A program made the position numbers and the translations under genes. Positions 2,550-37,800 of a stretch of DNA of 64,000 bases are shown in pieces. Within the stretch, counting starts at the first letter, position 1. Every line of letters starts with the position of its first letter. A model generated the notes under the pieces. The model worked only from the letters and a program-made list of their open reading frames with translations, ran no database searches and was not told the origin of the DNA. The DNA is taken from assembly GCA_964016885.1 (NCBI GenBank), contig OZ024744.1:80910001-80974000 (forward strand), in the 5' to 3' direction. Origin of the DNA: Eledone cirrhosa. Taxonomy: Eukaryota.

Positions 2550-5100
2550 GGAAGGCTTAAGAGAATGTAAAAGCCTCGCAAACCTGTTCAGACGTTTTCA
2601 ACTATCTGACAGGTACCAGTTGTATTTCCCAAATGTGCCAATGTGGACTTGGACAAACCACATCGGGTCATCCAGATCATATCTAGATAGGGTATTTTGT
2701 AGGGAAATAGATAGATCTATCATAGGTTGTCCACAATTCAAGATAGTCGACTACATGGACCACAAATTCGTGATCTGTGTGGTTGACTTAGATAGGTTTC
2801 ATAGACAGGGACCCGGCTACTGGAAATCTTACAGAGACTGGATTCGCGAATTAGTTAAGCGGCCGTTGACGGGGGCCATCATCAACAACAAAGGGTGGTT
2901 TGCCCTGAAAAGAGCGATTAGAATAGAGTCCATTAGGTTTAGTAAGGCATTAGTAACAGAGAAAAATAGAGCAGAGGGAGATCTAGTTTGCAAATTAGAC
3001 GAGGCGCTTAGTAAAGGCATCGCGACCGACGTGCTTGCAACGAAATTGGCTCTCGACCAATTTTTCAACGAAAAGCATGAAGGCTGCATTGTCAGAGCTA
3101 GGGTGCATGCTCTCAGACATGAGAGGATGAAAGCCGTTCAATGGGCCTGGGTGGCGGAGACACGTCGTGGCAACAAAGCCACGATCCGGTGTTTGGCGGA
3201 CCACAACGGGCGCATGACACTCGATCCCGGGCAGATGTGTGAGGCTTTTCAGCAGCACTTTGCTCAGCTGTTTGGGGGCAGTGGCGGGCCGCATTGCGGG
3301 ATGGACTTTAGTGCCTACCTCGACGGACTGCCGCAGCTCTCAGCCACTGAGGCGGAGTGTTGCGAAAGGCCGATAACAGCTGCTGAAGTACGGGAGGCAA
3401 TGACTAGCTGTACAATGGGAAAATCGCCTGGTTTGGATAGGGTCGACCATCGTTATCTAGAGGCATTCCTGATGAAGGCTGGCTTTGGGCCCATCTTCAG
3501 AGGCTGGAGCGCTGCCATGCACAGCGACATCTGCTCTCTGGTGAGAGGGGTTCCGCATATGCAGACGACATCACCGCATATGCAAACACATTGAGGCGAT
3601 CGGCACCACACTAAGAGAATAAGAGGCGGTGACAGGAGCAATGATCAACCAGGAAAAGTCGGTGGGCCTGCAACTTGGCACCTGGAGAGGCAGGTCCATG
3701 CCATCCAACAGCGTCATCGGGTGCTGGACGGACGGACCGGTTAAATTGCTAGGGGTCTGGTTTGGTCCGGACCTCCAGACGGACAAAAACTGGGACGAGG
3801 TGATGAGCAGGGTGGCCTCTCTCACCCAGAAATGGGCCTAGAGGAAGCTATCGAGTGGAGGTGGCGAATGCATAGATTCTGTCCGTCATCTACTACAGCC
3901 TGACCATCGTGCCTTGTCCTAAGCTTCGTCTGACTGCGCTGGAGCATTTGCTCTTTCGCTTATTGTGGAAGGGACGGGCTCCGATGGTCAGCTGGTCCAT
4001 CTGCTGTCAACACCCGCTATGTGGAGGGCTGGGCATCTCCACCTCTTCCTCGACGGTGATCAGGTGTGGTTGCCATTTGCTAGATGTGTGTTTCCCCAGC
4101 TCGTCTCCTTGACGGAGCTGCAGTCCTGGGTCAAGCACTTGGAGACTGGAATGTCTTCAGGCGCTAGCAGCCCTCGACCAGTCGGGCAATGTGATTGGTG
4201 AAAACTCCACCTTGGCGTTCTATAGAGGATTAGTGGAGGGGAAGAGCGACGACGTCCATGAGGAGACTCTGGGCGTCGACAAAAATCAACTAGCCAATCT
4301 CTTCAGGAGAACTTTCCATGGACAACTTCCAGAAATCCCTGACCTGGCAGTGCTACCGAGGATCTTTGCCAGTTTGGGATAAACTCTACAGGCATGGAAG
4401 TGCATCAGCCGGGCCTGTCTGAGATGCGCGCAGGGTGACGAAACCGTCCTGGATGCACTCATCCAGTATCCGATCATTGCTAACTTATGGGTTTATGTCG
4501 AACACCTGTTGTCACATGTAGAATGGATCTGGCTATCAGCTGAGTCCATCGTGAGGATTGTCCCACCGCCTTCCTTTAGCCGGGAAAGGCAGGCAGTTTT
4601 TATCTGCCTGGTGGCCATGATAAAAGAGATTGTATGGTCGACACATCTGAAAGGGTTGAAGACGGGTACTTTCCTCTTCAGTGATGCCCTCATTAAGTTT
4701 TTCAAGTTTCACCTGAAAAGGAAAATCAGGGTGGAGAGGGAAGTGCTGCCTTCCAGCCAGTTTGTTGAAAGGTGAGTGAGAGAGGTAAGAATGGCCTGTG
4801 TGAATGGGCCTAACCTGAGCGTGTCCCTGTAGCATCGTAGGAGGAAAACTGGAAGAGGGTATTTGCCCTGGTGGTCAGGGTAACCGTGGCTTTTTTGTGG
4901 GCTTTCTTCACAAGCGACCCCCAGAAGTCTCTCCCCTATTGGGGAATTTTTCATTATTTCTATTTTTGTTACATCCTCTGTTTTTGTTTTTTTTACACGC
5001 AGAAACGCCTATTTGTACCATCCTGTATTGTTCTGTACTGTCCTTAATGTTATACTTTGTGTCAACCCTTGTGGTTAATAAAGAAAGCATTATTATTATT
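2550..5100 (+). mobile_element. Tx1-clade LINE copy A: 5'-truncated, internally deleted, degenerate, ends in (TTA)n
   Basis: ORF 2518..3594 and downstream pieces align to ORF2 of copies B-D. A deletion joins GKSPGLD directly to RVDHRY. Same 3' UTR end CCTTGTGGTTAATAAAGAAA. Confidence 0.9.
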
Positions 5101-5308
5101 AGTGGATTGGCAGTATCAGTAGAGGGTCGGACGCCATGCTGTCCAACATAGTTACGTCCCTTTACGATCTGAGTTCAAATCCCGCCGAGGTTGACTTTGC
5201 CTTTCATCCTTACGGGGTCGATAAAATAAAGTACCAGTAATGCACTGGGTAATTACTGGCCTTGTGCCTAAAGTAGAAACAATTATTATTATTATTATTA
5301 TTATTATT
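5101..5308 (+). mobile_element. tRNA-derived SINE with (TTA)n tail, between Tx1 copies A and B
   Basis: A box TGGCAGTATCAGTAGAG, B box GAGTTCAAATCCC, core GCCTTTCATCCTTACGGGGTCGATAAAATAAAGTACCAG, tail AGAAACAATTATTATT. Confidence 0.9.
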
Positions 5309-5522
5309 GAATGCCATGGTTGACGGAGGCTCGGCTCTGTAAGGTATAGTAATTTTTAACCGTTAAAACAATTGTAAATTGTTTAAAACTTGAACCAAAT
5401 TGTTGATAAAGACACCCTCCTCCTCGTGAGAGGGGTCTTTCTGTCCGTTATTTGGCCCTTCGGGGTTAAATAACCAGTTATTGGGGTTTTGTACCCAATA
5501 TTCATTTTAAACAAAAAACAAC

Positions 5523-7620
5523 ATGGCTACGAAAAAGAAATTTCATACGTCACTCCCACTCATTCCGTCTTCTTCTTCCTCAATCATCACTACAGCAGAG
5601 AGAAGATTGTCTCTCTCCCTCCCTTCTTTAAATGTGTCTCTCTCCCTCCCTTCTCTTTCGCAAGTGACGAAAGAAAAGAAAAGTCTCGTGCAAAGCGTGC
5701 AAGGTTTCTCCACGACGATGACGACAGCGACGAAACAGGTGTGCGGGAAATACGAAAACCCAGTTCATTCGTCTGACGTCAGGAATAATAGCAGTAGCAG
5801 CCGTAATAACAACAGCAACAGTGACAATGAAAACAACAGTAGCAGCCGCAACAGCATCACCAGCAGCATAAACAACAACAGCATTAGCAGCAGCAACACC
5901 AACAACAACCACAGCAACAGCGGCGGAGGCAGTAGTCGTAGTACCTGCAGCAACAACAAAAGTACCAGCAGCTCTGACGACAACAACAGCAGCAGAGAAA
6001 AACCAATCTCATTTGCAGGTATTGCGAAAAACTTGGAAACAATCCTCATAACAAATGAGGAATTAGAGGAAGCGAAGAAGATGGTTACAAAGAACGGACA
6101 CCGAGCAATCTGCAAGGCAGCGGAAAAATTTTTCGAAACCCAAGAGCACTGTACGGTCACGTACCGTACAGTAAGTACAAAATCCCGTAGGGTGGAAAGA
6201 GCCACAGAGGCCCAAATACAAAAAGCCTTGGGGTCTGTGTGGCAGCAGAAAACGCACATCACCCGAGGCAAAAAATATGCCACCGTAGACGTACTTTTTG
6301 CCACACCCCAGGAGGCAAAGGCCCAATCAGTAGTGACCCTAAGGAGCGAGGAAATGGTGTTGGTGCCCTCCTACTGCGGGCAAAAAATTGTGAGGGTCAA
6401 ACTGACCCACGTCCCCCCCCGGAATGACCCCTTCTTGGCTGGCCGCGTCTGTCCTCGTCGGAATCGAGGACAAAACAACTGTACTGCAAGTACAGAAAAA
6501 AGTAAGAGAAGATTGGGTCGGCTCCTCCATTGAGATGCTAATCCAAACCAACCAGGAGTGCATCGAAGCTATCCCGGATGTGATAGACTTCGATAACGGC
6601 ACTCAACTGCCCATAAGTGTTGAGGGCAAACGCCCGAAATGCTTTCACTGTGGATCGAAGACTCACCTCAGGGCCTTCTGCAACGAGAAGACCCTGAGAA
6701 AGGAGAAAACCCCCCTCCTTCCGAATCCGGCTCCACAGCTACCAGCAACAGGACAAGCGGCAACCAGGAACGATAGGTCCGTGGCACCCATACCCACTCC
6801 ACGGAAATCAAAAACAGCAGCAGCAGTGGAAATATTAACAACAACAACAGCAATACCAAATGCAGCTGCAACAGAGACTCCAGTGCAAACATCACCAACA
6901 ACAACAAGTGAAAGAGTGGAGCTGGTACCTCTCCCCGACCTCACAGAATCAGACATGGAGTGTGAGGTGGGAGAGGGATGGCAAAAGGTCGCAAGAAGGC
7001 ACAAACGCAGAAGCAGCGCATCGTCGCCTTTGAAAAGGGAGGAAAGAAATGAGAAAAGGGTAAAGTCTACTGCAAAGAGACCCACAGCAGCAACACCACC
7101 AACACCATAACCACCCACACCAGCACCACCATCACCACCGGCGACAACCCCACCGCCAACAACACCTTCAACACCACCACCACAAGCACCAACATCGCAA
7201 ACACAACAACAAAACACACACACCCAGCAACAACGACAAGAAAATAGCAGAACCACACCCCACCCCCAGAAAAACAAATGCACGGCAATAAATACACACA
7301 ACAAGAAACTAATGACTTACATAATTGAACACACAGACATTTCACAACACGACTACATAATACCAGCACCAATCAAAACGCCAACTAACATAAGACTGCT
7401 AAAAATAGCACAGAAACAATACACAAACATTAAAACGAAATTCCCCAACGCAGTTGGTGATTTCAGGGACCTAGGAGGAACCATCAATCGAAGAGTATAT
7501 TCAGACATTCTCTTAGAAGAGCCGACGACCAGCCGAAGGGACGATTCAACGGTCCCTTCACCAGACGATCAAGTGAAAAGGGATGTAAAAACCATCCCTC
7601 CTCTACCAAAAGTACGGTAA
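5523..7620 (+). pseudogene. Tx1 ORF1 (RRM-like region plus CCHC zinc knuckle), split into ORF1a 5523..6533 and ORF1b 6424..7620; ORF1b has a premature TAA at 7108-7110
   Basis: PSYCGQKIVRVKLTHVPP / SWL...IPDVIDF...VEGKRPKCFHCGSKTHLRAFC. ORFs 6424..7110 and 7312..7620 are in the same frame. Confidence 0.85.
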
Positions 7621-7655
7621 GTGGTCTTTCCCATCTTTTCCACTCTATTTTAAAC

Positions 7656-10600
7656 ATGACCTCACTCAGAATAGGCAGCATAAATGCGCGTGGCTTGGGG
7701 TCGTCATGGAAGCAGGGTCACCTGCTCAACGACCTCAGGTCACTAAACATAGATGTAGTGGCCATCAGCGAGACCAGAATCTCCGAAGCACGGGCCTTCA
7801 CACCGATCTTCGGCGGCTACGATGTGTACGCATCTCCCAGCCGTCCTGGATCGGGTGGAGGAGTTGCTGTGCTTTTTCGGAGAGGTTTGGATCTCGCCAT
7901 ATGGGCCATCTTCCTGGACCCAGAGGGTAAGCTGGTGGTGCTGGACGTGACCAGCGGAGACGGGCAAGCTTTCAGGCTAGTGGCCGTCTATGCCCCGACA
8001 GGAGCAGGGCGGCCTGATTTCTTCCGGCGTCTGGAGACCTTTCTTGGAACGTCCCGCTCTTTAGTGTTAGTGGGCGACTGGAACGGGATCTTAGATGCAC
8101 GCTGGGACTGTGTGGGATTAGCGGATAGGGGTGGAGGGTGCAAGAGCCTCACCAACCTGCTCAGGCGTTTTGAACTGTCTGACAGGTACCGATTGGATTT
8201 CCCGAATGTGCCAATGTGGACTTGGACAAACCGCATAGGGTCATCCAGATCATATCTAGATAGAGTATTTTGTAGGGAAATAGATAGGTCTAGCATAGGC
8301 TATCCACAATTCAAGATAGTCAGCTACACGGACCACAAATTCGTGACCTGTGTGCTTGACTTAGATAGGCTTCATAGACGAGGACCCGGCTACTGGAAGC
8401 TAAACGCGTCCTTACCAGCGCGCAAGGCCTACAGAGACCGGATTAGCGAACTAGTTAAGCGGGCGTTGACGGGGGCCATCGTCAACAACAAGTGGTGGTT
8501 TGCTCTGAAAAGAGCGATTAGAATAGAATCGATTAGGTTTAGTAAGGCTTTAGCAATAGAGAAAAATAGAGCAGAGGGAGAACTAGTTAGAAAATTAGAC
8601 GAGGCGCTTAGCAAAGGCATTGCGACCGACGTGCTTGCGGCGAAATTGGCCCTTGACCAATTCTTCAATGCAAAGCACGAAGGCTGCGTTGTCAGAGCTA
8701 GGGTGCGTGCTCTCAGACACGAGGGGACGAAAGCCGTTCAATGGGCCCGAGTGGCGGAGGCGCGTCGTGACAACAAAGCCACGATCCGGTCTTTGGTGGA
8801 CCACGACGGGCGCATGCTACTCGATCCCGGGCAAATGTGTGAAGCTTTTCAGCGACACTTCGCTCAACTGTTCGGGGGCAGCGGGGGGCCGGGTAGAGGG
8901 ATGGACTTTAGTGTCTACCTCGACGGACTGCCAGGGCTCTCGGCCACTGAGGCGAAGTGTTGCGAAAAGCCGATAACAGCCGCTGAAGTAAGGGAAGCAA
9001 TGACTGGCTGCACAAGGGGTAAATCGCCTGGTTTGGATGGTCTGCCCTATGAACTTTACGTACAGATGCCAGACTTGTTCGGAGGCCTCTTGGCGGACGT
9101 CTACTGCAACTGCCAACAGAACGGGAGAATTCCCAGTTCTGTGAGCCGAGGAGCAGTGGCACTGCTGAGAAAGGATCCGAACAAGGGGAATAACATAGAC
9201 AATTTCCGGCCCATAACTCTGCTAAACACAGAGTTCAAGATTTTGGCCAAGGTGCTAGCAAAGAGGTTGGCGCTTGTCGTTGGTGGTCTGGTGGGAGAGG
9301 CGCAGACATGCGCTATTCCCGACAGATCCATCCACGACAACCTCCACCTCATGCGATACATCATAGAGAGAGTAGCTAAGGAACCTGGCACGGGTGGGTC
9401 CTTGATCAATTTAGATCAGTCGAAAGCTTTCGATAGGGTCGACCATCGTTACCTAGCGGCAGTCCTGAGGGCGGCTGGCTTTGGGCCCGTCTTCAGAGGC
9501 TGGATCGCTGCCATGCACAGCAACATCTGCTCTGTGGTGAGAGTGAACGGTCACCTGTCGGAACCGTTCAACATCATGCGCTCGGTCCGCCAAGGATGTC
9601 CCCTCTCGTCCCTCTTGTACGTATTGACTCTCGAGCCATTACTGCACAAACTGGAGACGTTGAGGGGAGTCCCGCGCGAACTAGGATGCGGAAGATCCGT
9701 GTCAGCATATGCGGACGATGTCACCGTAGTGGTGTCGAACGCCAAACACATCGAGGCGATCGGCACTACACTAAGAGAATACGAAGCGGTGACAGGAGCA
9801 ATGATCAACCAGGAAAAGTCGGTGAGCCTGCAGCTCGGCACCTGGAGAGGCAGGTCCATGCCGTCCAACAGCGTCGTCGGGCGCTGGACGGACGGACCGG
9901 TTAAATTGCTAGGGGTCTAGTTCGGTCCGGACCTCCAGACGGACAAAAACTGGGACGAGGTGACGAGCAGGTTGGCTTCTCTCACCCAGAAATGGGCCGA
10001 GAGGAAGCTATCCCTGAAAGGTCGAGCGGAGGTGGCTAACGCGTACATCGCGTCTGTCATCTGCTACCGCCTAACCGTCGTACCTTGTCCTAAGCCTCGC
10101 CTGACTGCGCTGGAGCGTTTGCTCTTTCGCTTTTTGTGGAAGGGACGTGCTCCGATGGTCAGGCGGTCCATCTGTTGTCAACACCCGCTACGTGGAGGGC
10201 TGGGCATGCCGTGGCTGATGATGCGCAGGCACGCGCTCAGGCTACGACATCTCCACCTCTTCCTCGACGGTGATCAGGTGTGGTCGCCGTTTGCTAGACG
10301 CGTTTTTCCCCAGCTCGTTTCCTTGACGGAGCTGCAGTCCTGGGTCAAGCGAAGACCGAGAGGGAGCGCCTGGAGACTGGAATGTCTTCAGGCGCTCACA
10401 GCCCTCGACCAATCGGGCAATGTGATCGGTGGAAACTCCACCTCGGCGTTCTATAGAGGATTAGTGGAGGGGAAGAGCGACGACGTACTTGGGGAAACTC
10501 TAGGCGTCGACGAAAATCAACTAGCCAATCTCTTCGGAAGAACTTTCGGGCCGGGGCCTATGGACAACTTCCAGAAATCTCTGGCCTGGCAGTGCTACCG

Positions 10601-11075
10601 AGGAGCCTTGCCAGTTCGGGATAAACTCTACAGGCATGGAGGTGCCGTCAGCCGGGCATGTCCGAGATGCGCGCAGGGCGACGAAACCATCCTGCACGCA
10701 CTCGTCCAGTGTCCGAAAATTGCTGACTTGTGGGTTTATGTCGAACACCTGCTGTCGCGTTTAGGACGGATCCGGCTATCATCTGAGTCCATCGTGAGGA
10801 TTGCCCCGCCCTCCTCCTTTAGCTGGGAAGGGCAGGCAGTTTTTATCTGCCTGGTGGCCATGGTGAAAGAGATAGTATGGTGGACACGTTTGAAAGGGCT
10901 GAAGACGAGCACTTACCTCTTCGGTGATGCTCTGATTGACTTTTTCAAATTTCATTTGAAAAGGAAAATCAGGGTAGAGAGGGAAGTGCTCTCTTCCCAG
11001 CATTTTGTAGAAAGATGGGTGAGAGAAGCAAGAATGGCCCGAGTGAATGGGCCTACTCTGAGTATATATCTGTAA
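7656..11075 (+). pseudogene. Tx1 ORF2 (APE endonuclease, reverse transcriptase, C-terminal zinc finger) with a single TGG>TAG nonsense at 9918-9920
   Basis: SINARGL, ISET, GDWN, YLDR, TDH; KSPGLDG, FRPITLLN, DQSKAFD, VRQGCPLS, YADD; CPRC...H...C. ORFs 7656..9920 and 9960..11075 are in the same frame. Confidence 0.93.
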
Positions 11076-11323
11076 ATTAAAGGTGGAAAACTGGGAGAGG
11101 GCACTTGCCTTGGTGGTCAGGGTCATTGTGGCTTTTTACTGGGCTTTCTCCACAAATGTCCCTCCGAAGTCTGCCCCCTATTGGGGAATTTTTCATTGTT
11201 ATTTTTTGTTACATCCTCTGTTTTTGTTTTTTACACGCAGAAATGCCCATTTGTACCGTCCTGCATTGTCCTGCACTGTCCTTAATGTCTACTTTATGTA
11301 AACCCTTGTGGTTAATAAAGAAA

Positions 11324-11361
<38 letters not shown>

Positions 11362-11587
11362 TTTATTATTGAATGCTATGGTTGACGGAGGCTCGGCTCT
11401 GTAAGGTACTGTAAATTTTGAACACTATAACAATTGTAAATTGTTTAAAACTTAGACCAACTTGTAGACAAAAACACCCTCCTCCTCGTGAGAGGGGTCT
11501 TTCTGCCCGTTATTTGGCCCTTCGGGGTTAAATAACTGCTTATTGGGGTTTTGTACCCAATATTTATTTTTAACAAAAAAAAACAAC

Positions 11588-13661: not shown

Positions 13662-13696
13662 GTGGTCTTTCCCATCTTTTCCACTCTATTTTAAAC

Positions 13697-17093: not shown

Positions 17094-17348
17094 ATTAAAG
17101 GTGGAAAACTGGGAGAGGGCACTTGCCCTGGTGGTCAGGGCCACTGTGGTCATTTAATGGGCTTTCTCCACAAATGTCCCTTGGAAGTCTCCCCCCTATT
17201 GGGGAATTTTTCTTTGTTATTTTATTTCAACCTCTGTTTTTTTACACGCAGAAATGCCCATTTGTACCGTCCTGTATTGTCCTGTACTGTCCTTAATGTC
17301 TACTTTATGTGAACCCTTGTGGTTAATAAAGAAAACATTATTATTATG

Positions 17349-17386
<38 letters not shown>

Positions 17387-17678
17387 TACTACTACTAAAG
17401 GTGGTTTGGAGCAGGTTGATATGAAAAGGGTTAAACACAAGACTTTCCTAAACGAATAAAGGTGAAAGCTATTTGGAATGATCTGTGAGAAAGATTTGAC
17501 TGTTTTCTACATAAGTGCTGCTGTTGTTGTTCATATGAAATTGGAGCTTACTTTGCCGTAAGTAAGCTAATGTTATAAACATAAGAAATTAAATGTCACT
17601 AGCCCAGCATTTGAAATATGCAGGTCTAATATATCTGGTTCTTTTGCTTGGATTGAAGTTTATTATTTGATCTATTAC

Positions 17679-25523: not shown

Positions 25524-25696
25524 AATAATTAATGATTCTTTCCCATATTTCTTTTAGATGTAGTAATTGAAAATGTTCATTACATGAGACAATTATATAG
25601 TGGGGTTTATCTGAAATAGTGTGAGAACGCTGCTCCCCTTCCCCATAAATTAAGAGAACATCACTCACACATCTTCCCACAGTACTGCACCACTCA

Positions 25697-25897
25697 TAAT
25701 AAAAATAATAACAATAATAATAATTGTTTCTACTTTTGGCACAAGGCCAGCAATTTTTTTCCAGTGTATTACTGGTACTTTATTTTATCGACCCCGTAAG
25801 GATGAAAGGCAAAGTTAACCTCGGCGGGATTTGAACTCAGAACGTAAAGGGCCATAACTTTATGCTGCAAAGCAGGGTGTCAGATACTCTACCACCC
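25697..25897 (-). mobile_element. tRNA-derived SINE with (TTA)n tail, abutting the 3' tail of Tx1 copy D
   Basis: Homologous to 5101-5290. Confidence 0.85.
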
Positions 25898-25954
<57 letters not shown>

Positions 25955-26212
25955 TTTCTTTATTAACCACAAGGGTTTACATAAAGTAGACATTAAGGAC
26001 AGTGCAGGACAATGCAGGACGGTACAAAACGGTACAAATGGGCATTTCTGCGTGTAAAAAACAAAAACAGAGGATGTAACAAAAAATAACAATGAAAAAT
26101 TCCCCAATAGGGGGGAGACTTCGGAGGGACATTTGTGGAGAAAGCCCAGTAAAAAGCCACAATGACCCTGACCACCAAGGCAAGTGCCCTCTCCCAGTTT
26201 TCCACCTTTAAT

Positions 26213-29200
26213 TTACAGATATATACTCAGAGTCGGCCCATTCACTCGGGCCATTCTTGCTTCTCTCACCCATCTTTCAACAAAATGCTGGGAAGAGAGC
26301 ACTTCCCTCTCTACTCTGATTTTCCTTTTCAAATGAAATTTGAAAAAGTCAATCAGAGCATCACCGAAGAGGTAAGTGCTCGTCTTCAGCCCTTTCAAAC
26401 GTGTCCACCATACTATCTCTTTCGCCATGGCCACCAGGCAGATAAAAACTGCCTGCCCTTCCCGGCTAAAGGAGGAGGGCGGGGCAATCCTCACGATGGA
26501 CTCAGATGATAGCCGGATCCGTCCTAAACGCGACAGCAGGTGTTCGACATAAACCCACAAGTCAGCAATTTTCGGACACTGGACGAGTGCGTGCAGGACG
26601 GTTTCGTCGCCCTGCGCGCATCTCGGACATGCCCGGCTGACGGCACCTCCATGCCTGTAGAGTTTATCCCGAACTGGCAAGGCTCCTCGGTAGCACTGCC
26701 AGGCCAGAGATTTCTGGAAGTTGTCCATAGGCCCTGGCCCGAAAGTTCTTCCGAAGAGATTGGCTAGTTGATTTTCGTCGACGCCTAGAGTTTCCCCAAG
26801 TACGTCGTCGCTCTTCCCCTCCACTAATCCTCTATAGAACGCCGAGGTGGAGTTTCCACCGATCACATTGCCCGATTGGTCGAGGGCTGTGAGCGCCTGA
26901 AGACATTCCAGTCTCCAGGCGCTCCCTCTCGGTCTTCGCTTGACCCAGGACTGCAGCTCCGTCAAGGAAACGAGCTAGGGAAACACGCGTCTAGCAAACG
27001 GCGACCACACCTGATCACCGTCGAGGAAGAGGTGGAGATGTCGTAGCCTGAGCGCGTGCCTGCGCATCATCAGCCACGGCATGCCCAGCCCTCCACGTAG
27101 CGGGTGTTGACAACAGATGGACCGCCTGACCATCGGAGCGCGTCCCTTCCACAAAAAGCGAAAGAGCAAACGCTCCAGCACAGTCAGGCGAGGCTTAGGA
27201 CAAGGTACGACGGTCAGGCGGTAGTAGATGATGGATGCGATGTACACATTCGCCATCTCCGCTCAACCTTTCAGGGATAGCTTCCTCTCGGCCCATTTCT
27301 GGGTGAGAGAAGCCACCCTGCTCGTCACCTCGTCCCAGTTTTTGTCCGTCTGGAGGTCCGGACTGAACCAGACCCCTAGCAATTTAACCGGTCCGTCCGT
27401 CCAGCGTCCGACGACGCTGTTGGACGGCATGGACCTGCCTCTCCAGGTGCCGAGCTGCAGGCCCACTGACTTTTCCTGGTTGATCATTGCTCCTGTCACC
27501 GCTTCGTATTCTCTTAGTGTAGTGCCGATCGCCTCGATGTGTTTGGCGTTCGACACCACTACGGTGACATCGTCCGCATATGCTGATACGGATCTTCCGC
27601 ATCCTAGTTCGCGCGGGACCCCCCTCAACGTCTCCAGTTTGTGCAGTAATGGCTCGAGAGTCAATACGTACAAGAGGGACGAGAGGGGACAACCTTGGCG
27701 GACCGAGCGCATGATGTTGAACGGTTCCGACAGGTGACCGTTCACTCTCACCACAGAGCAGATGTCGCTGTGCATGGCAGCGATCCAGCCTCTGAAGACG
27801 GGCCCAAAGCCAGCCGCCCTCAGGACTGCCGCTAGGTAACGATGGTCGACCCTATCGAAAGCTTTCGACTGATCTAAATTGATCAAAGACCCACCCGTGC
27901 CAGGTTCCCTAGCTACCCTCTCTACGATGTATCGCATGAGGTGGAGGTTGTCGTGGATGGATCTGTCGGGAATGGCGCATATCTGCGCCTCTCCCACCAG
28001 ACCACCAACGACAAGCGCCAACCTCTTTGCTAGCACCTTGGCCAATATCTTAAACTCTGTGTTTAGCAGAGTTATGGGCCGGAAATTGTCTATGTTATCC
28101 CCCTTGTTCGGATCCTTTCTCAGCAGTGCCACCGCTCCTCGGCTCACAGAACTGGGAATTCTCCCGTTCTGTTGCCAGTTGCAGTAGACGTCCGCCAAGA
28201 GGCCTCCGAACAAGTCTGGCATCTGTACGTAAAGTTCATAGGGCAGACCATCCAAACCAGGCGATTTACCCCTTGTGCAGCCAGTCATTGCCTCCCTTAC
28301 TTCAGCGGCTGTTATCGGCTTTTCGCAACACTTCGCCTCAGTGGCCGAGAGCCGCGGCAGTCCGTCGAGGTAGACACTAAAGTCCATCCCTCTACCCGGC
28401 CCCCCGCTGCCCCCGAACAGCTGAGCGAAGTGTCGCTGAAAAGCTTCACACATTTGCCCGGGATCGAGTAGCATGCGCCCGTCGTGGTCCACCAAAGACC
28501 GGATCGTGGCTTTGTTGCCACAACGCGCCTCCGCCACTCGGGCCCATTGAACGGCTTTCGTCCCCTCGTGTCTGAGAGCACGCACCCTAGCTCTGACAAC
28601 GCAGCCTTCGTGCTTTGCATTGAAGAATTGGTCAAGGGCCAATTTCGCCGCAAGCACGTCGGTCGCAATGCCTTTGCTAAGTGCCTCGTCTAATTTTTTA
28701 ACTAGTTCTCCCTCTGCTCTATTTTTCTCTATTGCTAAAGCCTTACTAAACCTAATCGATTCTATTCTAATCGCTCTTTTCAGAGCAAACCACCACTTGT
28801 TGTTGACGATGGCCCCCGTCAACGCCCGCTTAACTAGTTCGCTAATCCGGTCTCTGTAGGCCTTGCGCGCTGGTAAGGACGCGTTTAGCTTCCAGTAGCC
28901 GGGTCCTCGTCTATGAAGCCTATCTAAGTCAAGCACACAGGTCACAAATTTGTGGTCCGTGTAGGTGACTATCTTGAATTGTGGACAGCCTATGCTAGAC
29001 CTATCTATTTCCCTACAAAATACTCTATCTAGATATGATTTGGATGACCCTATGCGGTTTGTCCAAGTCCACATTGGCACATTCGGGAAATCCAATCGGT
29101 ACCTGTCAGACAGTTCAAAACGCCTGAGCAGGTTGGTGAGGCTCTTGCACCCTCCACCCTTATCCGCTAATCCCACACAGTCCCAGCGTGCATCTAAGAT

Positions 29201-29632
29201 CCCGTTCCAGTCGCCCACTAACACTAAAGAGCGGGACGTTCCAAGAAAGGTCTCCAGACGCCGGAAGAAATCAGGCCGCCCTGCTCCTGTCGGGGCATAG
29301 ACGGCCACTAGCCTGAAAGCTTGCCCGTCTCCGCTGGTCACGTCCAGCACCGCCAGCTTACCCTCTGGGTCCAGGAAGATGGCCCGTATGGCGAGATCCA
29401 AACCTCTCCGAAAAAGCACAGCAACTCCTCCACCCGATCCAGGACGGCTGGGAGATGCGTACACATCGTAGCCGCCGAAGATCGGTGCGAAGGCCCGTGC
29501 TTCGGAGATTCTGGTCTCGCTGATGGCCACTACATCTATGTTTAGTGACCTGAGGTCGTTGAGCAGGTGACCCTGCTTCCATGACGACCCCAAGCCACGC
29601 GCATTTATGCTGCCTATTCTGAGTGAGGTCAT
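26213..29632 (-). pseudogene. Tx1 ORF2 of copy D with two nonsense changes (CGA>TGA at 27263-27265, CAG>TAG at 26975-26977)
   Basis: ORFs 27263..29632, 26975..27256 and 26213..26965 share one frame. Confidence 0.92.
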
Positions 29633-29667
29633 GTTTAAAATAGAGTGGAAAAGATGGGAAAGACCAC

Positions 29668-31747
29668 TTACCGTACTTTTGGTAGAGGAGGGATGGTTTT
29701 TACATCCCTTTTCACTTGATCGTCTGGTGAAGGGACCGTTGAATCGTCCCTTCGGCTGGTCGTCGGCTCTTCTAAGAGAATGTCTGAGTATACTCTTCGA
29801 TTGATGGTTCCTCCTAGGTCCCTGAAATCACCAACTGCGTTGGGGAATTTCGTTTTAATGTTTGTGTATTGTTTCTGTGCTATTTTTAGCAGTCTTATGT
29901 TAGTTGGCGTTTTGATTGGTGCTGGTATTATGTAGTCCTGTTGTGAAATGTCTGTGTGTTCAATTATGTAAGTCATTAGTTTCTTGTTGTGTGTATTTAT
30001 TGCCGTGCATTTGTTTTTCTGGGGGTGGGGTGTGGTTCTACTATTTTCTTGTCGTTGTTGCTGGGTGTGTGTGTTTTGTTGTTGTGTTTGCGATGTTGGT
30101 GCTTGTGGTGGTGGTGTTAAAGGTGTTGTTGGCGGTGGTGATGGTGGTGCTAGTGTGGGTGGTGATGGTGTTGGTGTTGTTGCTGCTGTGGGTCTCTTTG
30201 CAGTAGACTTTACCCTTTTCTCATTTCTTTCCTCCCTTTTCAAAGGCGACGATGCGCTGCTTCTGCGTTTGTGCCTTCTTACGACCTTTTGCCATCCCTC
30301 TCCCACCTCACACTCCATGTCTGATTCTGTGAGGTCGGGGAAGGGTACCAGCTCCACTCTTTCACTTGTTGTTGGTGATGTTTGCACTGGAGTCTCTGTT
30401 GCAGCTGCATTTGGTATTGCTGTTGTTGTTGTTAATATTTCCACTGCTGCTGCTGTTTTTGATTTCCGTGGAGTGGGTATGGGTGCCACGGACCTATCGT
30501 TCCTGGTTGCCGCTTGTCCTGTTGCTGGTAGCCGTGGAGCCGGATTCGGAAGGAGGGGGGTTTTCTCCTTTCTCAGGGTCTTCTCGTTGCAGAAGGCCCT
30601 GAGGTGAGTCTTCGATCCACAGCGAAAGCATTTCGGGCGTTTGCCCTCAACACTTATGGGCAGTTGAGTGCCGTTATCGAAGTCTATCACATCCGGGATA
30701 GCTTCAATGCACTCCTGGTTGGTTTGGATTAGCATCTCAATGGAGGAGCCGACCCAATCTTCTCTTACTTTTTTCTGTACTTGCAGTACAGTTGTTTTGT
30801 CCTCGATTCCGACGAGGACAGACGCGGCCAGCCAAGAAGGGGTCATTCCGGGGGGGGACGTGGGTCAGTTTGACCCTCACAATTTTTTGCCCGCAGTAGG
30901 AGGGCACCAACACCATTTCCTCGCTCCTTAGGGTCACTACTGATTGGGCCTTTGCCTCCTGGGGTGTGGCAAAAAGTACGTCTACGGTGGCATATTTTTT
31001 GCCTCGGGTGATGTGCGTTTTCTGCTGCCACACAGACCCCAAGGCTTTTTGTATTTGGGCCTCTGTGGCTCTTTCCACCCTACGGGATTTTGTACTTACT
31101 GTACGGTACGTGACCGTACAGTGCTCTTGGGTTTCGAAAAATTTTTCCGCTGCCTTGCAGATTGCTCGGTGTCCATTCTTTGTAACCATCTTCTTCGCTT
31201 CCTCTAATTCCTCATTTGTTATGAGGATTGTTTCCAAGTTTTTCGCAATACCTGCAAATGAGATTGGTTTTTCTCTGCTGTTGTTGTTGTCGTCAGAGCT
31301 GCTGGTACTTTTGTTGTTGCTGCAGGTACTACGACTACTGCCTCCGCCGCTGTTGCTGTGGTTGTTGTTGGTGTTGCTGCTGCTAATGCTGTTGTTGTTT
31401 ATGCTGCTGGTGATGCTGTTGCGGCTGCTACTGTTGTTTTCATTGTCACTGTTGCTGTTGTTATTACGGCTGCTACTGCTATTATTCCTGACGTCAGACG
31501 AATGAACTGGGTTTTCGTATTTCCCGCACACCTGTTTCGTCGCTGTCGTCGTCGTCGTGGAGAAACCTTGCACGCTTTGCACGAGACTTTTCTTTTCTTT
31601 CGTCACTTGCGAAAGAGAAGGGAGGGAGAGAGACACATTTAAAGAAGGGAGGGAGAGAGACAATCTTCTCTCTGCTGTAGTGATGATTGAGGAAGAAGAA
31701 GACGGAATGAGTGGGAGTGACGTATGAAATTTCTTTTTCGTAGCCAT
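29668..31747 (-). CDS. Tx1 ORF1 of copy D (ORF1a plus intact ORF1b, +1 break at the C8 run ~30850-30857)
   Basis: No internal stops; zinc knuckle CFRCGSKTHLRAFC. Confidence 0.75.
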
Positions 31748-31983
31748 GTTGTTTTTTGTTTAAAATGAATATTGGGTACAAAACCCCAATAACTGGTTAT
31801 TTAACCCCGAAGGGCCAAATAACGGACAGAAAGACCCCTCTCACGAGGAGGAGGGTGTCTTTATCAACAATTTGGTTCAAGTTTTAAACAATTTACAATT
31901 GTTTTAACGGTTAAAAATTACTATACCTTACAGAGCCGAGCCTCCGTCAACCATGGCATTCAATAATAATAATAATAATAATA

Positions 31984-34900
31984 AAAGCACATAGAAACAT
32001 ATATATATATAAACAATAAAAATGAAAATTGAAACAATGAAAAATTCCCCAATAGGGGGGGAAACCTCCGAGGGTTACTCGTGGCGAAAATCACACAAAA
32101 AGACCACGGCCACCCTGACCACCAGGGCAAGTGCCCTCTCTCAATTTTTCCATTTCTCAAACTACAGGCGTATATTCAGAGCAGTCCCGTTCACTCGGAC
32201 CATTCTCCCTACATTCACCCACCTTTCAACAAACTTGCTAGAAGGCAGCACTTGCCTCTCCACCCTGATTTTCCTCTTCAAGTGAAACTTGAAAAAGTTA
32301 ATTAGGGATTCGCCGAAGAGGAAAGTATCTATCTTTAACCCTTTCAACCTTGTCCACCACACAATCTCTTTCGCCATGGCCACCAGGCAGATGAAAACCA
32401 CCTGCCCTTCCTCCTCGAAGGAAGACGGCAAGACCATCTGCACAATGGACTCAGTCGACAATCGGATCAGTCCTACACGGGACAGCAACTGTTCGACATA
32501 GCTGTACAAGTCAGCAATGCTCGGACACTGAACGAGTGCATGCACGACGATTTCGTTGCTCTGCGCACATCTCGGACAGGCTCGGCTGATGGCACTTCTG
32601 TGCCTGTAGAGCTTATCTCGAACCGGCAACGCTCCCTGGTAGCACTGCCAGGCCAGGGATTTTTGGAAGTTATCCATAGGCCCTGGCTGAAAGTTCTCCA
32701 GAAGAGAGCAAACAGCTGATCTTCTCTGACGCCCAGGATCTCTCCGAGAACGTCGTCGCTCTTCCCCTCCACTAGTCCTCTATAGAACGCCGAGGTGGAT
32801 GTTCCACCAATACTGGTGCCAAGCTGGCAGAGTGCAGTGAGCGCCTGGAGACATTCCAGTTTCCAAGCGCTATCCCTCGGTCTTTTCCTAACCCAGGACT
32901 GCAGCTCCGTCAAGGAGACGAGCTGTGGGAAAACGTGCCTGGCGAACGGCAACCACACCCGTTCACCGTCAAGGAAGCACCAGAGATGTCGCAGCCTCAG
33001 TGCTTGTTTGCGCATCATCAGCCATGGCATGCCCAGTCCTCTACGCAACGGGTGTTGACAGCAGATGGATCGTCTGACTATGGGAGCGCGACCCTTCCAC
33101 AAAAAGCGGAAGAGGAAGCGCTCCATTTTGGTGAAAGTTGGGCCGGGGCAAGGGACGACGGTGAGGCGGTAGCAGATGATGGATGCGATGTATGCATTCG
33201 CCACCTCCGCCCGGCCTTTCAGGGACAGCTTCCTCTTGGCCCATTTCTGGGTGAGGGAGGCCACTTTGCTCATCACCTCGCTCCAGTTTTTCTCCATCTG
33301 GAGGTCCGGTCCGAACCAGACCCCGGGCATCTGGACGTGTCTGGTGCTTGACACCACCACGGTGACGTCGTCGGCGTAAGCCGACTAGGATTTCCCACAT
33401 CCTAGTTCGCATGGGACGACCCTCATCGCCCCCAGTTTGTGCAGTAACGGCTTGAGAGCTAATACGTACAAGAGGGATGAGAGGGGACAACCCTGGCGGA
33501 CCGAGCGCATGATGCTGAACGGCTGCGACAGGTGACCGTTCACCCTCACAACTGAGCAGATGTCGCTGTACATCGCAGCGATCCAACCCCTGAAAACGGG
33601 CCCGAAACCGGCTGCCTCAAGGACCGCCGCCATGTACCGATGGTCGACCCTATCGAATGCTTTGGATTGATCCAAGTTGATCAGGGCCCCACCCATGCCA
33701 GGTTCCTTAACCACCCTCTCTATTGTGTATCGCATGAGGTGGAGGTTGTCGTGTATGGATCTGTCCGGAATGGTGCATGTCTGCGCCTCTCCCACCAGAC
33801 CCTTGACGACTAGCGCCAACCTCGTTGCTGACACCTTGGCCAAAATCTTGAACTCTGCGTTTAGCAGAGTTATGGGCCTGAAATTATCGATAACATCCCC
33901 CTTGTTCGGGCCTTTTCTCAGCAGCGCCACCGCTCCCTGGCTCACAAAACTGGGAATGCTCCCATTCTGCTGCCAGTTGCAGTAGACGTCTGCCAAGAGG
34001 TCACCGAGCAAGTCTGGCATAAATGCATAAAGCTTGTAGGGCAGACCATCCAAACCTGGCGATTTACCCCTCGTGCAGTTAGCCATCGCTTCCCGTATTT
34101 CACCGGCTGTTATTGGCTTTTCGGAACACTGTGCTGCCATTGTCGAAAGCCGAGGCAGTCCGTCGAAGTATGCACTGAAGTCCGTACCCCGATTCGGCTC
34201 GCTGCTGCTCCCGAACAGTTCAGCAAAGTGCTGCTGAAAAGCTTCACACATCTGCTCGGGTTCGAGCAGCACGCGCCCGTTTTGGTCAGATAAAGACTGA
34301 ATTGTGGCTTTGTTGCCATGTCGCGCCTCTGCCATCCGGGCCCATTGTATGGCTTTTGTCCCCTCGTGTTTCACAGCACGCGCTCTAGCTCTGACAACGC
34401 AGCCTTCGTGTTTTGCATTGAAGAATTGGTCGAGTGCCAACGTCGCTGCAAGCATGTTGGTTGCGATGCCTGTCCTAAACGCCTCTTCTAGCTTTTTGAT
34501 TAGCTCTCCCTCTACTCTATTTTCCTCTATAACTAGTCCTTTGCTAAACCTAATCGACTCTACTTTAATTGCCCTTTTCAGGGTGAACTGCCACCTGTTG
34601 TTGACAACTGCTCCCGTCAACGCCGGCTTAACTAATATGCTAATCCGGTCTCTGTAGGCTTTACGCGCCGGGAAAGACGCGTTCAGCTTCCAGAAACCGG
34701 GTCCATATCTATGAAGTCTGTCTATGTCGATCTCACAGATCACAGATTTGTGGTCTGTGTAGTCGACTATTTTAGATTGTGGACAACTTATACTAGCCTT
34801 ATCTAGTTCTCTGCAGAATACCCTATCGAGATACGATCTGGATGACCCGATGCAGTTTGTCCATGTCCACATTGGCACATTCGGGTGATCCAGTCGATAC

Positions 34901-36835
34901 CTGTCAGACAGTTCAAAACGTCTGAGCAGGTTGGTGAGGCTCTTGCACCCTCCTCCCCTATCCACTAGCCCCACACAATCCCAGCGTCCATCCAAGATAC
35001 CGTTCCAGTCACCCACTAACACTAAAGAGCGGGACGTTCCCAGAAAGATCTCTAGACGTCTGAAGAAATCTGGCCGTCCTGTCCCTGTCGGGGCATACAT
35101 GGCTACTAGCCTGAAAGCGTTGCCTTCGGTGCCGCTTACGTCCAGCACCACCGACTTACCTTCTGGGTACAGGAAGATGGTCCGTATGGCGAGACCCAAG
35201 CCTTTCCAAAACAACACAGCCACTCCACCCCCTGCTCCTGGACGGCTTGGAGATGCGTGCACCTCATAACCATCGAAGATCGGTGCGAAAGCTTGCGTTT
35301 TGGAGATTCTCGTCTCGCTGATGGCCACGACATCTATGTTTAGTGATCTGAGGTCGTTAAGCAAGTAACCCTGCTTCCAAACCAAGCTCAAGTCGTGCTG
35401 TGAAATGTCTGTGTGTTCAATTATGCAAGTCATTAGTTTCTTGTTCTGTGTATTTATTGCTGTGCATTTCTTTTTCTGGGGTTGGGGTGTGGTTCTGCTA
35501 TTTTCTTGTCGTTGTTGCTGGGTGTGTGTTTTGTTGTTGTGTTTGCGATGTTGGTGCTTGTGGTGTTGTTGTTGTTGGCGGTGGGGTTGCCGCCGGTGGT
35601 GATGGTAGTGCTATTGTGGGTGGTGATGGTGTTGGTGCTGCTGCTGCTGTAAGTCTCTTTGCAGTAGCCTTCACTCTTTTTTCAACTCTTCCTTCCCTTT
35701 TCGAAGGCGACGATGCAGTGCTTCTGCGTTTGTGCCCTCTTGCGACCTTTTTCCATCCCTCTCCCACCTCACACTCCATGTCCAATTCTGTGAGGTCGGG
35801 GAGGGGTACCAGCTCCACTCTTTCACTTGTTCTTGTTGGTGATGGTTGCAGTGGAGTCTCTGTTGCAGCTGCAGTTGGTATTACTGTTGTTGTTGTTAAT
35901 ACTTCCACTGCTGCTGCTCTTCTTGATTTCCGTGGCGTGGGTATGGGTGCCACGGACCCATCCTTCCTGCTTGCCGCCTGTCCTGTTGCTGGTAGCAGTG
36001 GAGCCGGTTTCGAAAGGAGGGGGGTTTCTCCTTTCTCAGGGTCTTCTCATTGCAGAAAGCCCTGAGGTGAGTCTTCGACCCACAGCAAAAGCATTTTGGG
36101 CATTTGCCCTCAACACTTATGGGAAGTTGAGTGCCGTTATCGAAGTCTATCACATCCGGGATAGCTTCGATGCACTCCTGGTTGGTTTGAATTAACATTT
36201 CAATGGAGGCGCCGACCCAATCTTATCGTACTTTTTTCTGTACTTGCAGTACAGTTGTTTTGTCCTCGATTCCGATGAGGGCAGACGCAGCCAGCCAAAA
36301 AGGAGCCATCCTGGGGAGGGTGGGAGGACTTGTGTCAGTTTGACCCTCACAACTTTTTGCCTGCAGTAGGAGGGCACCAACACCATTTCCTCGCTCCATA
36401 GGGTCACTAAGGATTGAGCCTTTGCCTCCTGGGGTGTGGCAAAAAGCACGTCCACGGTGGCATATTTCTTGCCTCGGGTGATGTGCGTTTTCTGCTGCCA
36501 CACAGACCCTAAGGCTTTTTGTATTTGAGCCTCTGTGGCTCTTTCAACCCTACATGATTTTGTGCTTACTGTTCGGTACATGACCGTACAGCGCTGTTGG
36601 GTTTCGAAAAATTCTTCGGCTGCCTTGCAGATTGCTCGGTGTCCGGTTTTCCTCACCATCTTCTTTGCTTCCTGTAATTCCTCATTTGTTATAAGGATGG
36701 TTTCCAGGTTCTTTGCGATACCTGCAACTGAGATTGGTTTTTCTTTCTTGTTGTTGTTGTTGTTGTCGTTAGAGCTGCTGTTACTTTTGTTGTTGCTGCT
36801 GGTACTACGACCGCCGCCACCGCTGTTGCTGTTGT

Positions 36836-36867
<32 letters not shown>

Positions 36868-37453
36868 TTGCTGCTGCAGTTGTTGTTTTTGCTGCTGCTG
36901 CTGATGTTGCGGCTGCTACTAGTATTTTCCTCGCCACTGTTGCTGCTGATGCTATTCTTCATGACGTCAGATGAATGAAATGGCTTTCCGTATTTACCGC
37001 ACACATCTTTCGTCATCGTCGTCATGGAGAAATGTTCCACGGTACGCGTGTTCTCTTGATGAAGAACGCTACGAGAAACTACACTTTTCTTTTTCTTTAA
37101 TGGTGTCGCTTGCGACAGAGGCGACACCACATTTAGAGAAGGGAGGGAGAGAGACATCTTTTCTCTGACGTAATGACGATTGGGGAAGAAGACAGAAAGA
37201 GTGGGAGTGACTTGTGAAAATTCTTTTTTGTAGCCATGTTTTTTTACGGTTTAAAATGAATATTGGGCAAAAATCCCCAATAACTAGATATTTAACCCTG
37301 AAAGGGCCAAATAACGGGCAGAAAGACCCCTCTCACGAGGAGGCGGGTGTCTTTATCTACAATTTGGTTCAAGTTTTAAACAATTTACAATTGTTATAAC
37401 GGCTAAAAATTACAATACCTTACAGAGCCGAACCTCCGTCAACCATGGCATTC
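31984..37453 (-). mobile_element. Tx1-clade LINE copy E: older, more diverged, with frameshifts and internal deletions
   Basis: Same 5' end. A deletion at ~35390 fuses the ORF1 C-terminal part to ORF2 (ORF 33385..35433). Second deletion at ~33330. The 3' UTR lacks the standard terminus. Confidence 0.92.
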
Positions 37454-37651
37454 AATAATAATAATAATAATAATTGTTTCTACTTTTGCCACAAGGCCAG
37501 CAATTTCCCCAGTGCAGTACTGGTACTTTATTTTATCAACCCCGTAAGGATGAAAAGCAAAGCTAACCTCAGTGGAATTTAAACTCAGAACGTAAAGGGC
37601 CATAACTCTATACTGCAAAGCATAGTGTCTGACGCTCTACCGATACTGACA
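37454..37651 (-). mobile_element. tRNA-derived SINE whose (TTA)n tail abuts the 5' end of Tx1 copy E
   Basis: Homologous to 5101-5290. Confidence 0.85.
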
Positions 37652-37800
37652 AAATAATAATAATGTTTTCTTTATTAACCACAAGGGTTAGCACAAAGCA
37701 TAACAGTAATGATAACACAGGATGGTACACATGGGCGTTTCTGCTTGTAAAAACAAATACATAAAACAAAGACAAAGGATGTAACCAAAAAAAAAAATAA
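37652..37800 (-). mobile_element. Tx1 3' UTR-only fragment (copy F) with (TTA)n tail
   Basis: Minus strand GCAGAAACGCCCATGTGTACCATCCTG...CCCTTGTGGTTAATAAAGAAAACATTATT. Confidence 0.85.

What the first reader, a model, noticed from the sequence alone, without database searches (positions are those of the whole stretch)
2550..37800. (TTA)n-associated Tx1 LINE builds head-to-tail arrays at its own tails and SINE tails
Seen: all four full-length copies start at the same base (GAATGC) directly after (TTA)n, and all six copies end in (TTA)n. The two clusters have parallel architecture. Plus: A-SINE-B-C. Minus: F-SINE-E-D-SINE. Every junction is a TTA tract. Established: Tx1-clade elements are often sequence-specific, including microsatellite-targeting families such as Kibi and Koshi. 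Inference: this family targets (TTA)n and regenerates its target with each insertion, creating self-feeding sinks shared with the SINE.
Basis: partly seen in the sequence, partly recalled or inferred. Interest (0 to 1): 0.7.

Follow-up and report, generated by a model that had tools for sequence, protein, structure and literature searches.

The report
ATT-repeat-seeking LINE stacks with partner SINE
Copies of a jumping gene (likely a Tx1-type LINE, probably from an octopus) begin right after ATT repeats and mostly end in them, so each insertion likely makes the landing site for the next and builds head-to-tail stacks, and a short repeat (SINE) that ends in a matching predicted hairpin likely borrows this lineage's enzyme.

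Summary
Largely confirmed. Two oppositely oriented stacks (A-SINE-B-C; F-SINE-E-D-SINE) are joined at ATT tracts. All 4 intact heads start at ...ATT|GAATGC. In raw reads of two other samples, about 94% of the depth over the head runs on through 14 nt of perfect TTA upstream. The stacks are not segmental duplications: neighbours differ, unique flanks do not match, and ORF2 dN/dS between copies is 0.21-0.35. Corrections: E lacks the family's 3' end, A's 5' flank is not TTA, no copy is intact, and solo SINEs land at single ATTA(T) sites with 16-20 nt duplications, not in tracts. That suggests a sequence-recognised partnership. Tx1 membership is likely but not proven by a tree. Microsatellite-targeting Tx1 families and Tx1-moved SINEs are known; the ATT target and the shared hairpin are the new variant. 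Untested: flanks of 5'-truncated copies, and whether the 5' TTA is partly carried by the RNA. The scan has reported this same system before, on other pieces of this genome and in other genomes.

The parts
2550..5088 (+). LINE copy A, 5'-truncated (start approximate), many internal deletions, 88% to B
5064..5076 (+). 3' hairpin of A (AACC-CTTGT-GGTT), 12 nt before the tail
5089..5101 (+). (ATT)4 tract, A tail / SINE junction
5102..5281 (+). SINE, slightly 5'-truncated, 96% to the solo SINEs near 615 and 54880; hairpin GGC-CTTGT-GCC at 5258-5268
5282..5308 (+). (ATT)9 tract, SINE tail / B head junction
5309..11325 (+). LINE copy B, complete outline: ORF1 from 5523 with +1 shift at the C8 run 6413-6420, ending 7620; ORF2 7656-11075 (APE, RT, CCHC) with one stop at codon 755; hairpin 11301-11313
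11326..11370 (+). (ATT)n tract with one interruption, B tail / C head junction
11371..17336 (+). LINE copy C, 96.6% to B; same ORF1 shift; 23-nt deletion near the ORF2 start; open frame 13725-17093; hairpin 17312-17324
17337..17397 (+). C tail (ATT)16 running into (ACT)4, likely the rest of a pre-existing compound microsatellite
25696..25724 (-). degenerate (ATT)n tract after the last SINE of the minus stack
25725..25899 (-). SINE, 5'-truncated, in the tail of D
25900..25952 (-). (ATT)17 tail of D
25953..31961 (-). LINE copy D, 98.8% to B; same ORF1 shift; two stops in ORF2
31962..31984 (-). (ATT)7 tract in front of the D head, abutting the shortened end of E
31985..37453 (-). LINE copy E, older subfamily (84.5% to B), intact head, internal deletions, lacks the terminal hairpin
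37454..37474 (-). (ATT)7 tract, SINE tail / E head junction
37475..37652 (-). SINE, 5'-truncated, 85% to the SINE of the plus stack
37653..37664 (-). (ATT)4 tail of F
37665..37800 (-). LINE copy F, 3' UTR stub with hairpin (37677-37689); 5' limit uncertain
627..808 (-). solo SINE with 20-nt target duplication beginning ATTA
54880..55061 (+). solo SINE with 16-nt target duplication beginning ATTAT
57213..57588 (-). tandem SINE pair; the upstream copy carries a 16-nt duplication beginning ATTAT that overlaps the head of the second

Best explanation
These are separately inserted copies of an APE-RT LINE, likely of the Tx1 clade and likely from an octopod, whose intact heads sit directly after ATT tracts and whose 3' ends carry ATT tails; the element likely inserts into (ATT)n tracts, so that each copy would leave a new tract (its tail plus the target duplication) for the next, in the same orientation. 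Inferred mechanism: the endonuclease nicks the AAT strand; the RNA's (AUU)n end pairs with the freed strand and primes reverse transcription, which fixes the orientation; a second nick about 16-20 nt away duplicates part of the tract in front of the head. The SINE ends in the same predicted CUUGU-loop hairpin at the same distance from the tail, so it is likely copied by this LINE lineage (about 0.6; perhaps by a sister subfamily with looser targeting). It enters the stacks because tails are rich in its short ATTA(T) site.
For: Shown: 4 of 4 heads after ...TTATT and 7 of 7 internal junctions at ATT tracts. Raw reads laid on 5295-5414: mean depth 558 at the first four bases of a 14-nt TTA flank against 591 at head bases 3-6 in run X17, and 500 against 529 in X18 (94% and 95%). 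No other letter reached 1% at 5295-5307. Reads with only about 39 aligned bases were laid in the same call, so heads with other flanks should have shown as a step. Two contigs of run X1 join the SINE's last 11 nt plus (ATT)4 to the head region. Independent origin: B-D dS 0.033, B-C 0.072, B-A 0.255, B-E 0.568, with dN/dS 0.21-0.35; the two stacks' unique flanks share no match better than 27 nt at E 0.02; their SINEs are 85% alike and truncated at different points. APE catalytic motifs, YADD and the CCHC motif are present. SINE link: 14-15 of the last 25 nt match in register without gaps, reached by 8 of 2,554 other ATT-preceding 25-mers; 3 of 4 stem pairs change on both sides around a loop kept in 12 of 13 ends; 4 of 9 SINE tails outside the stacks have 16-20 nt duplications starting ATTA. 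Known: Tx1 families target microsatellites, SINEU shares targets with Tx1-Mar and inserts in tandem (PMC4494074).
Against: Only intact heads were tested outside the window. 3' ends outnumber heads roughly five- to eight-fold by summed contig depth (a rough measure), and the flanks of truncated copies are unknown. In the window A has no TTA 5' flank and F is ambiguous. No unique-sequence duplication could be found for any LINE copy. The read sets are RAD libraries whose reads end at AATT sites, so they sample a subset of loci (69-82 start places for single variants) and under-sample SINE-head junctions; alignments over short repeats are error-prone. The junction register is fixed while SINE duplications vary in length. 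The SINE is not enriched in tracts (3 of 12 against 31%, p 0.77). The hairpin is weak (-1.7 to -4.2 kcal/mol) and was not the predicted fold of the longer SINE ends; its covariation rests on two or three related lineages, not 12 independent sequences, and the shuffle control does not correct for that. E lacks the hairpin. No copy here is intact.
Confidence: 0.72

Rival explanations
1. The true target is only the short ATTA(T) site that the SINE uses. The long TTA run in front of intact heads is partly carried on the LINE RNA (transcription starting in the upstream tract or tail) and copied with it. Stacks still form, because tails are dense in such sites.
For: Identical register ...ATT|GAATGC in 4 of 4 heads and in about 94% of read depth, while SINE duplications vary from 16 to 20 nt. 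SINE lands mostly outside tracts. A has no TTA 5' flank. Transcription from flanks is discussed for SINEU and R2 (PMC4494074).
Against: All 5 canonical LINE ends run into tracts of 4-17 units; 4 of them lead into another element and C ends in an (ATT)16(ACT)4 compound repeat. Tract lengths before heads differ (7, 7, 9, about 15 units). A phased second nick, or pairing of only 2-3 terminal bases, would also fix the register.
Confidence: 0.17
2. Stacks arise in single events, by read-through transcripts of neighbouring elements or by template jumping of the reverse transcriptase between LINE and SINE RNAs, not by later insertion into tails.
For: SINE-tail/LINE-head junctions occur twice here and again in run X1; template jumps are described for SINEU (PMC4494074).
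Against: Neighbours within a stack differ widely in divergence and subfamily (B-C 96.6%, D-E 84.5%, A-B 88%), and near-identical B and D have different neighbours on both sides.
Confidence: 0.06
3. The two stacks are an old inverted segmental duplication or products of unequal crossing-over between tracts, and the TTA junctions are inherited, not targeted.
For: A-SINE-B aligns to F-SINE-E at about 85% over 2.4 kb.
Against: B-E differences are strongly synonymous (dN/dS 0.21), B is 98.8% like D, the SINEs have different 5' ends, and the unique flanks do not match.
Confidence: 0.03
4. The SINE is moved by an unrelated LINE (RTE, CR1 or Dong/R4), and the likeness of the 3' ends is chance or convergence.
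For: The shared stretch is short (14-15 of 25 nt). RTE, CR1 and Dong-R4 are all recently active in Octopus vulgaris (PMC13282606, Table 1 passage). Only two RTE-like ends were available here for comparison.
Against: Same loop, same 12-nt spacer with AGAAA at the same place, compensated stem, same ATT junction. The motif search found no such end at the two RTE-like elements of the window; one of them ends in (ATG)n.
Confidence: 0.25

Closest known systems
Kibi (TC)n, Koshi (TTC)n and crocodilian (TTCC)n/(TTTC)n Tx1 families (PMC4494074, parts 1-4 of 5 read, figures not visible; PMC3812793, passages)
   Same: APE-RT LINEs of Tx1 type that sit in a microsatellite.
   Different: The repeat here is (ATT)n and matches the element's own tail. 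The window's lineage forms its own branch with Argonauta and unnamed marine proteins, 35-39% identical in RT to the vertebrate Tx1-type proteins.
SINEU / Tx1-Mar of crocodilians (PMC4494074)
   Same: A SINE sharing insertion sites with a Tx1 group; tandem arrays from serial insertion.
   Different: SINEU has snRNA heads, a poly(A) tail and no LINE with a shared 3' end was found; target is Mariner-N4. Here a 3' hairpin is shared and the site is ATT.
Maize LINE1-1_ZM with ZmSINE2/3; Chlamydomonas L1-1_CR with SINEX-3_CR (PMC3472496, passages)
   Same: L1-clade LINE and SINE sharing a 3' end; in the maize lineage a stem-loop with conserved loop and compensated stem.
   Different: Plants and algae, poly(A) in the algal pair; that 2012 survey of 58 SINE-LINE pairs found only three SINEs with L1-clade tails, none animal.
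Zebrafish ZfL2-1/ZfL2-2 stringent LINEs (PMC4176376, abstract and section 20)
   Same: Model for ORF2 recognising a 3' stem generally and its loop specifically.
   Different: L2 clade; shown by assay there, only predicted here.
Dong (Bombyx, Anopheles, Biomphalaria), TAA-microsatellite targeting (PMC3812793, passage)
   Same: Same microsatellite class.
   Different: R4 clade with a restriction-like endonuclease (recalled; that review lists it among APE types). Here the endonuclease is an N-terminal APE and the sense-strand tail reads ATT.
Keno-like (U2-inserted) elements in fetched loci L018, L016, L006
   Same: Among the nearer relatives with DNA context (L018: 36% RT identity, 347 bits).
   Different: Flanked by U2 snRNA sequence; none of the 80 fetched loci holds an ATT run of 14 nt or more.

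Membership tests
Tx1 clade (L1 group) | ORF2 with N-terminal APE, RT and C-terminal CCHC | tested here: met
   Pfam Exo_endo_phos, RVT_1, zf-RVT; catalytic motifs located
Tx1 clade (L1 group) | ORF1 with a CCHC knuckle, unlike mammalian L1 ORF1 (feature recalled) | tested here: met
   CX2CX4HX4C motif read in ORF1 of C and D; no Pfam hit for ORF1
Tx1 clade (L1 group) | RT groups with reference Tx1 families to the exclusion of L1 | tested here: inconclusive
   phmmer bits 347 to U2-flanked L018, 245-260 to proteins named YTX2/TX1, 143 to human L1. Trees (quick and FastTree only) put the lineage in an unresolved fork with them and held no L1 or Repbase reference
Target-specific Tx1 (criterion of PMC4494074: one sequence type in over 20% of flanks) | Flank shared by more than 20% of copies | tested here: met
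   4 of 4 intact heads in the window; about 94% of read depth over heads. Truncated copies not tested
Target-specific Tx1 | Endonuclease cleaves the target sequence | not testable with these tools
   needs purified enzyme
Kibi / Koshi | Insertion in (TC)n or (TTC)n | tested here: not met
   all junctions are (ATT)n
Keno | Insertion in U2 snRNA genes | tested here: not met
   no Rfam match in the window
Dong / R4 | C-terminal restriction-like endonuclease, no APE (recalled) | tested here: not met
   N-terminal APE
Stringent SINE-LINE pair | Shared 3'-terminal sequence | tested here: inconclusive
   14-15 of 25 nt in register; 8 of 2,554 control 25-mers reach that; shorter than in most described pairs
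Stringent SINE-LINE pair | 3' stem-loop with conserved loop and compensated stem | tested here: met
   3 of 4 pairs change on both sides, 89.6% of cells paired, slid controls 25-60%; few independent lineages
Stringent SINE-LINE pair | LINE protein needs the stem-loop to move the SINE | not testable with these tools
   needs a retrotransposition assay
tRNA-derived SINE | tRNA-like head with A and B boxes | tested here: inconclusive
   ARAGORN and Rfam found nothing; A- and B-box-like words are visible by eye against a recalled consensus; short length, tail and duplications fit a SINE

The most novel reading that the evidence does not exclude
An animal Tx1/L1-group LINE that picks its RNA by a CUUGU stem-loop, targets the very repeat it writes as its tail, and drives a major octopod SINE family. 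One enzyme lineage would then explain both the SINE burst and the growth of multi-element stacks in ATT microsatellites, and give a compact system for testing how L1-group enzymes moved between strict and relaxed RNA recognition.
Probability: 0.45. Interest if true: 0.65.

Novelty: new variant of a known kind. Interest (0 to 1): 0.45.

Why it matters
It adds an ATT target to the Tx1 microsatellite-targeting families, with the twist that target and tail are the same repeat, so insertions feed on themselves and stay out of unique DNA. The shared hairpin points to a partner LINE for a SINE type that recurs across the window; SINEs make up about 40% of octopus TE content (PMC8967140, passage). A strict-recognition pair in the L1 group was reported only from plants and algae in the survey I read (PMC3472496). 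Both points can be tested with standard assays. The principle itself (target-specific Tx1, serial tandem insertion, Tx1-moved SINEs) is in print, which caps the interest.

Tried and rejected
No whole genome was held, so the flank logo and the count of tandem copies against expectation could not be run. The first read lay said nothing about the junction because the tool skips long repeats; it gave only the rough 3'-to-5' depth ratio. Contig depth falls towards the tract, but such contigs break at repeats, so it was not used. Loose ends of low agreement behind 5352-5357 coincide with an AATT site and were taken as library artefacts. No RNA holder was listed. The 80 related metagenome loci are distant (best RT segment 37-46% identity at most) and none carries an ATT tract, so they do not test the target of this lineage. 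The careful tree did not finish; quick and FastTree trees were read instead. A search for an unbroken long ORF1 homologue found none among 268 candidates (weak evidence). The ESM Atlas gave only generic names. ARAGORN and Rfam did not identify the SINE head. Segmental duplication was tested and rejected. Six paper searches showed no description of an ATT-targeting Tx1 or of an octopus SINE with a Tx1 tail. That is not proof of absence: Repbase entries, Kojima and Fujiwara 2004, Ohshima and Okada 1994 and Akasaki 2010 were not read (seen only as citations), the Tx1L endonuclease paper was not held, and the target labels in Fig. 3 and the supplements of PMC4494074 were not seen.
Full report
Anatomy. 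Self-comparison and junction reading confirm two stacks. Plus strand: A (about 2550-5088), (ATT)4, SINE (5102-5281), (ATT)9, B (5309-11325), an interrupted tract, C (11371-17336), (ATT)16(ACT)4. Minus strand: F (about 37800-37665), (ATT)4, SINE (37652-37475), (ATT)7, E (37453-31985), (ATT)7, D (31961-25953), (ATT)17, SINE (25899-25725), a degenerate tract. Identities: B-D 98.8%, B-C 96.6%, A-B 87.9%, B-E 84.5%. B, C, D and E start at the same base after ...TTATT. Five of six copies end in the family terminus; E does not. None is intact.

What the LINE is. ORF2 has APE, RT and zf-RVT domains with the catalytic motifs in place. ORF1 carries a CCHC knuckle. The closest named protein is from Argonauta hians, 72% over the RT region, so the host is probably an octopod; L1-Tx1 families are recently active in Octopus vulgaris (PMC13282606, passage of Table 1). 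With one query and one program, scores were 347 bits to a U2-flanked, Keno-like element (L018), 245-260 to proteins named YTX2/TX1 and 143 to human L1. The trees give the window's element, the Argonauta protein and unnamed marine proteins their own supported branch in an unresolved fork; they held no L1 reference. Tx1 membership is likely, not shown.

Is the TTA flank general? No genome was held, so I used public runs. Laid on 5295-5414 (14 nt of tract plus 106 nt of head), raw reads of X17 had mean depth 558 over the first four tract bases against 591 over head bases 3-6, and X18 500 against 529: 94% and 95% (92% against the peak). No other letter reached 1% at 5295-5307, and one did at 5308 (6 of 437 reads). 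Reads aligning over only about 39 nt were laid, so heads with another flank should have made a step at 5309; the step is about 2-3%. Limits: both runs are RAD libraries of one study, under the same species label as a run that holds 64% of the head's words; reads stop at AATT sites; single variants had 69-82 start places, so the number of loci is probably tens or more but unknown. 3' ends are about five to eight times deeper than heads in contig depth, so most copies are truncated or of sister families and were not tested.

Serial insertion, not duplication. A-SINE-B aligns with F-SINE-E at 85%, which could suggest an old duplication. But ORF2 differences are mostly synonymous (dN/dS: B-A 0.33, B-C 0.35, B-D 0.33, B-E 0.21), as expected for copies of different active sources. 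The SINEs are 85% alike with different 5' ends, B and D have different neighbours, and about 1 kb of unique flank on each side of the two stacks gave no match beyond 27 nt at E 0.02. The order of insertion cannot be read, since a newcomer can enter the tract before or behind an older copy.

The SINE. A motif search without a tail requirement found 5 LINE ends and 12 SINE-type ends; 10 of the 12 are followed by ATTAT. Of 12 tails in a second search (which required ATT), 9 lie outside the stacks, and 4 of those 9 have duplications of 16-20 nt that begin ATTA. Only 3 of 12 lie in tracts, where 31% of the window's 285 ATTAT sites are (p 0.77; partly circular, as the insertions made the tracts). 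So the SINE uses a short site and is not a tract-seeker. Its end matches the LINE's: LINE AACC-CTTGT-GGTT, SINE (T)GGC-CTTGT-GCC(A/T), each followed by exactly 12 nt with AGAAA at positions 6-10, then ATT. In-register identity is 14-15 of 25; 8 of 2,554 control 25-mers reach 14. Three of four stem pairs change on both sides; 89.6% of cells pair, against 25-60% when slid. The sequences are related, so this counts as two or three events. The hairpin is weak and was not the best fold of longer SINE ends. I noted this match before looking at the scan's earlier notes.

Mechanism. Shown: junction sequences, fixed register, read support, independent origin, SINE duplications, shared end. Inferred from established target-primed reverse transcription: nick on the AAT strand, priming by the (AUU)n tail, orientation fixed by that pairing, duplication of 16-20 nt (length taken from the SINE), and each insertion leaving tracts at both ends. 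Open: why heads have a fixed register while SINE duplications vary, and why LINE heads need long tracts while the SINE does not.

Comparison with print. PMC4494074 (parts 1-4 of 5 read) gives Tx1 targets (TC)n, (TTC)n, (TTCC)n, (TTTC)n, U2 and transposons, and SINEU moved by Tx1-Mar with tandem insertions but no shared 3' end. PMC3812793 (passages) lists TAA targeting only for Dong. PMC3472496 (passages) found three SINEs with L1-clade tails among 58 pairs, in maize and an alga. PMC4176376 (abstract, section 20) gives the stem/loop recognition model for L2. Passages of PMC4824008, PMC11481361, PMC4758252, PMC3747384 and PMC8967140 name CR1, L2, Nimb and RTE partners for other SINEs and no partner for octopus SINEs. 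Six searches showed no ATT-targeting Tx1. Repbase, several primary papers, and the figures and supplements of PMC4494074 were not seen and may already describe the family.

Earlier notes of the scan (the sequence look-up gave nothing) report the same system 11 times, on other pieces of this genome and in other genomes. They are unchecked and add no independent support.

Verdict. ATT-tract insertion with self-renewing stacks is the best explanation (0.72). The SINE partnership is likely at lineage level (about 0.6). New variant of a known kind; interest 0.45.

Noticed in passing
window 6413-6420 (B), about 12478-12485 (C), about 30850-30857 minus (D), about 36310-36327 minus (E): B, C and D share a +1 shift at a run of eight C in ORF1, and E has its own shift at the same place, although both ORF1 halves show purifying selection between B and E. 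Shared lesion, assembly homopolymer error or programmed shift; no unbroken homologue was found.
   Followed up: partly
window 5309-5522: The 5' UTR of about 214 nt folds into several stable predicted hairpins (-67.5 kcal/mol, no shuffle control) and is well kept between B and the 84% copy E.
   Followed up: no
window 40634-42529 (-) and about 59277-62290 (+): Two RTE-like LINE remnants (RT plus PHD-like region); the plus-strand one ends in (ATG)n. RTE label by recalled likeness.
   Followed up: partly
window 23061-23085, 23621-23645 (-), 47758-47781 (-), 63148-63172 (-), 2296-2320 (-): Other, older SINE-type ends with the same CTTGT loop but different spacers; the one at 63148 has a 19-nt duplication beginning ATTAT. 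Suggests several SINE families with this tail.
   Followed up: partly
window 22826-23091: A SINE that appears interrupted by an unrelated stretch of about 45-50 nt after CCTTTAC.
   Followed up: no
window 19985-21044 and 25061-25523: Long degenerate (TGT)n and (ATG)n tracts between the two stacks, which hold no copy of this LINE.
   Followed up: no
window 49693-49772: An (AAT)n tract followed by an (ATT)n tract, about 80 nt, unoccupied by the LINE.
   Followed up: no
window 17666-18059: Five copies of a 79-nt tandem repeat just past the plus stack.
   Followed up: no
L018 5815-5977, L016, L006, L004, L012; L014 5495-5618; L008 start: Metagenome relatives flanked by U2 snRNA or 5S rRNA sequence, like Keno and Mutsu (Mutsu recalled); L008 has a U1-like word near its start, seen by eye, with no Rfam match.
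   Followed up: partly
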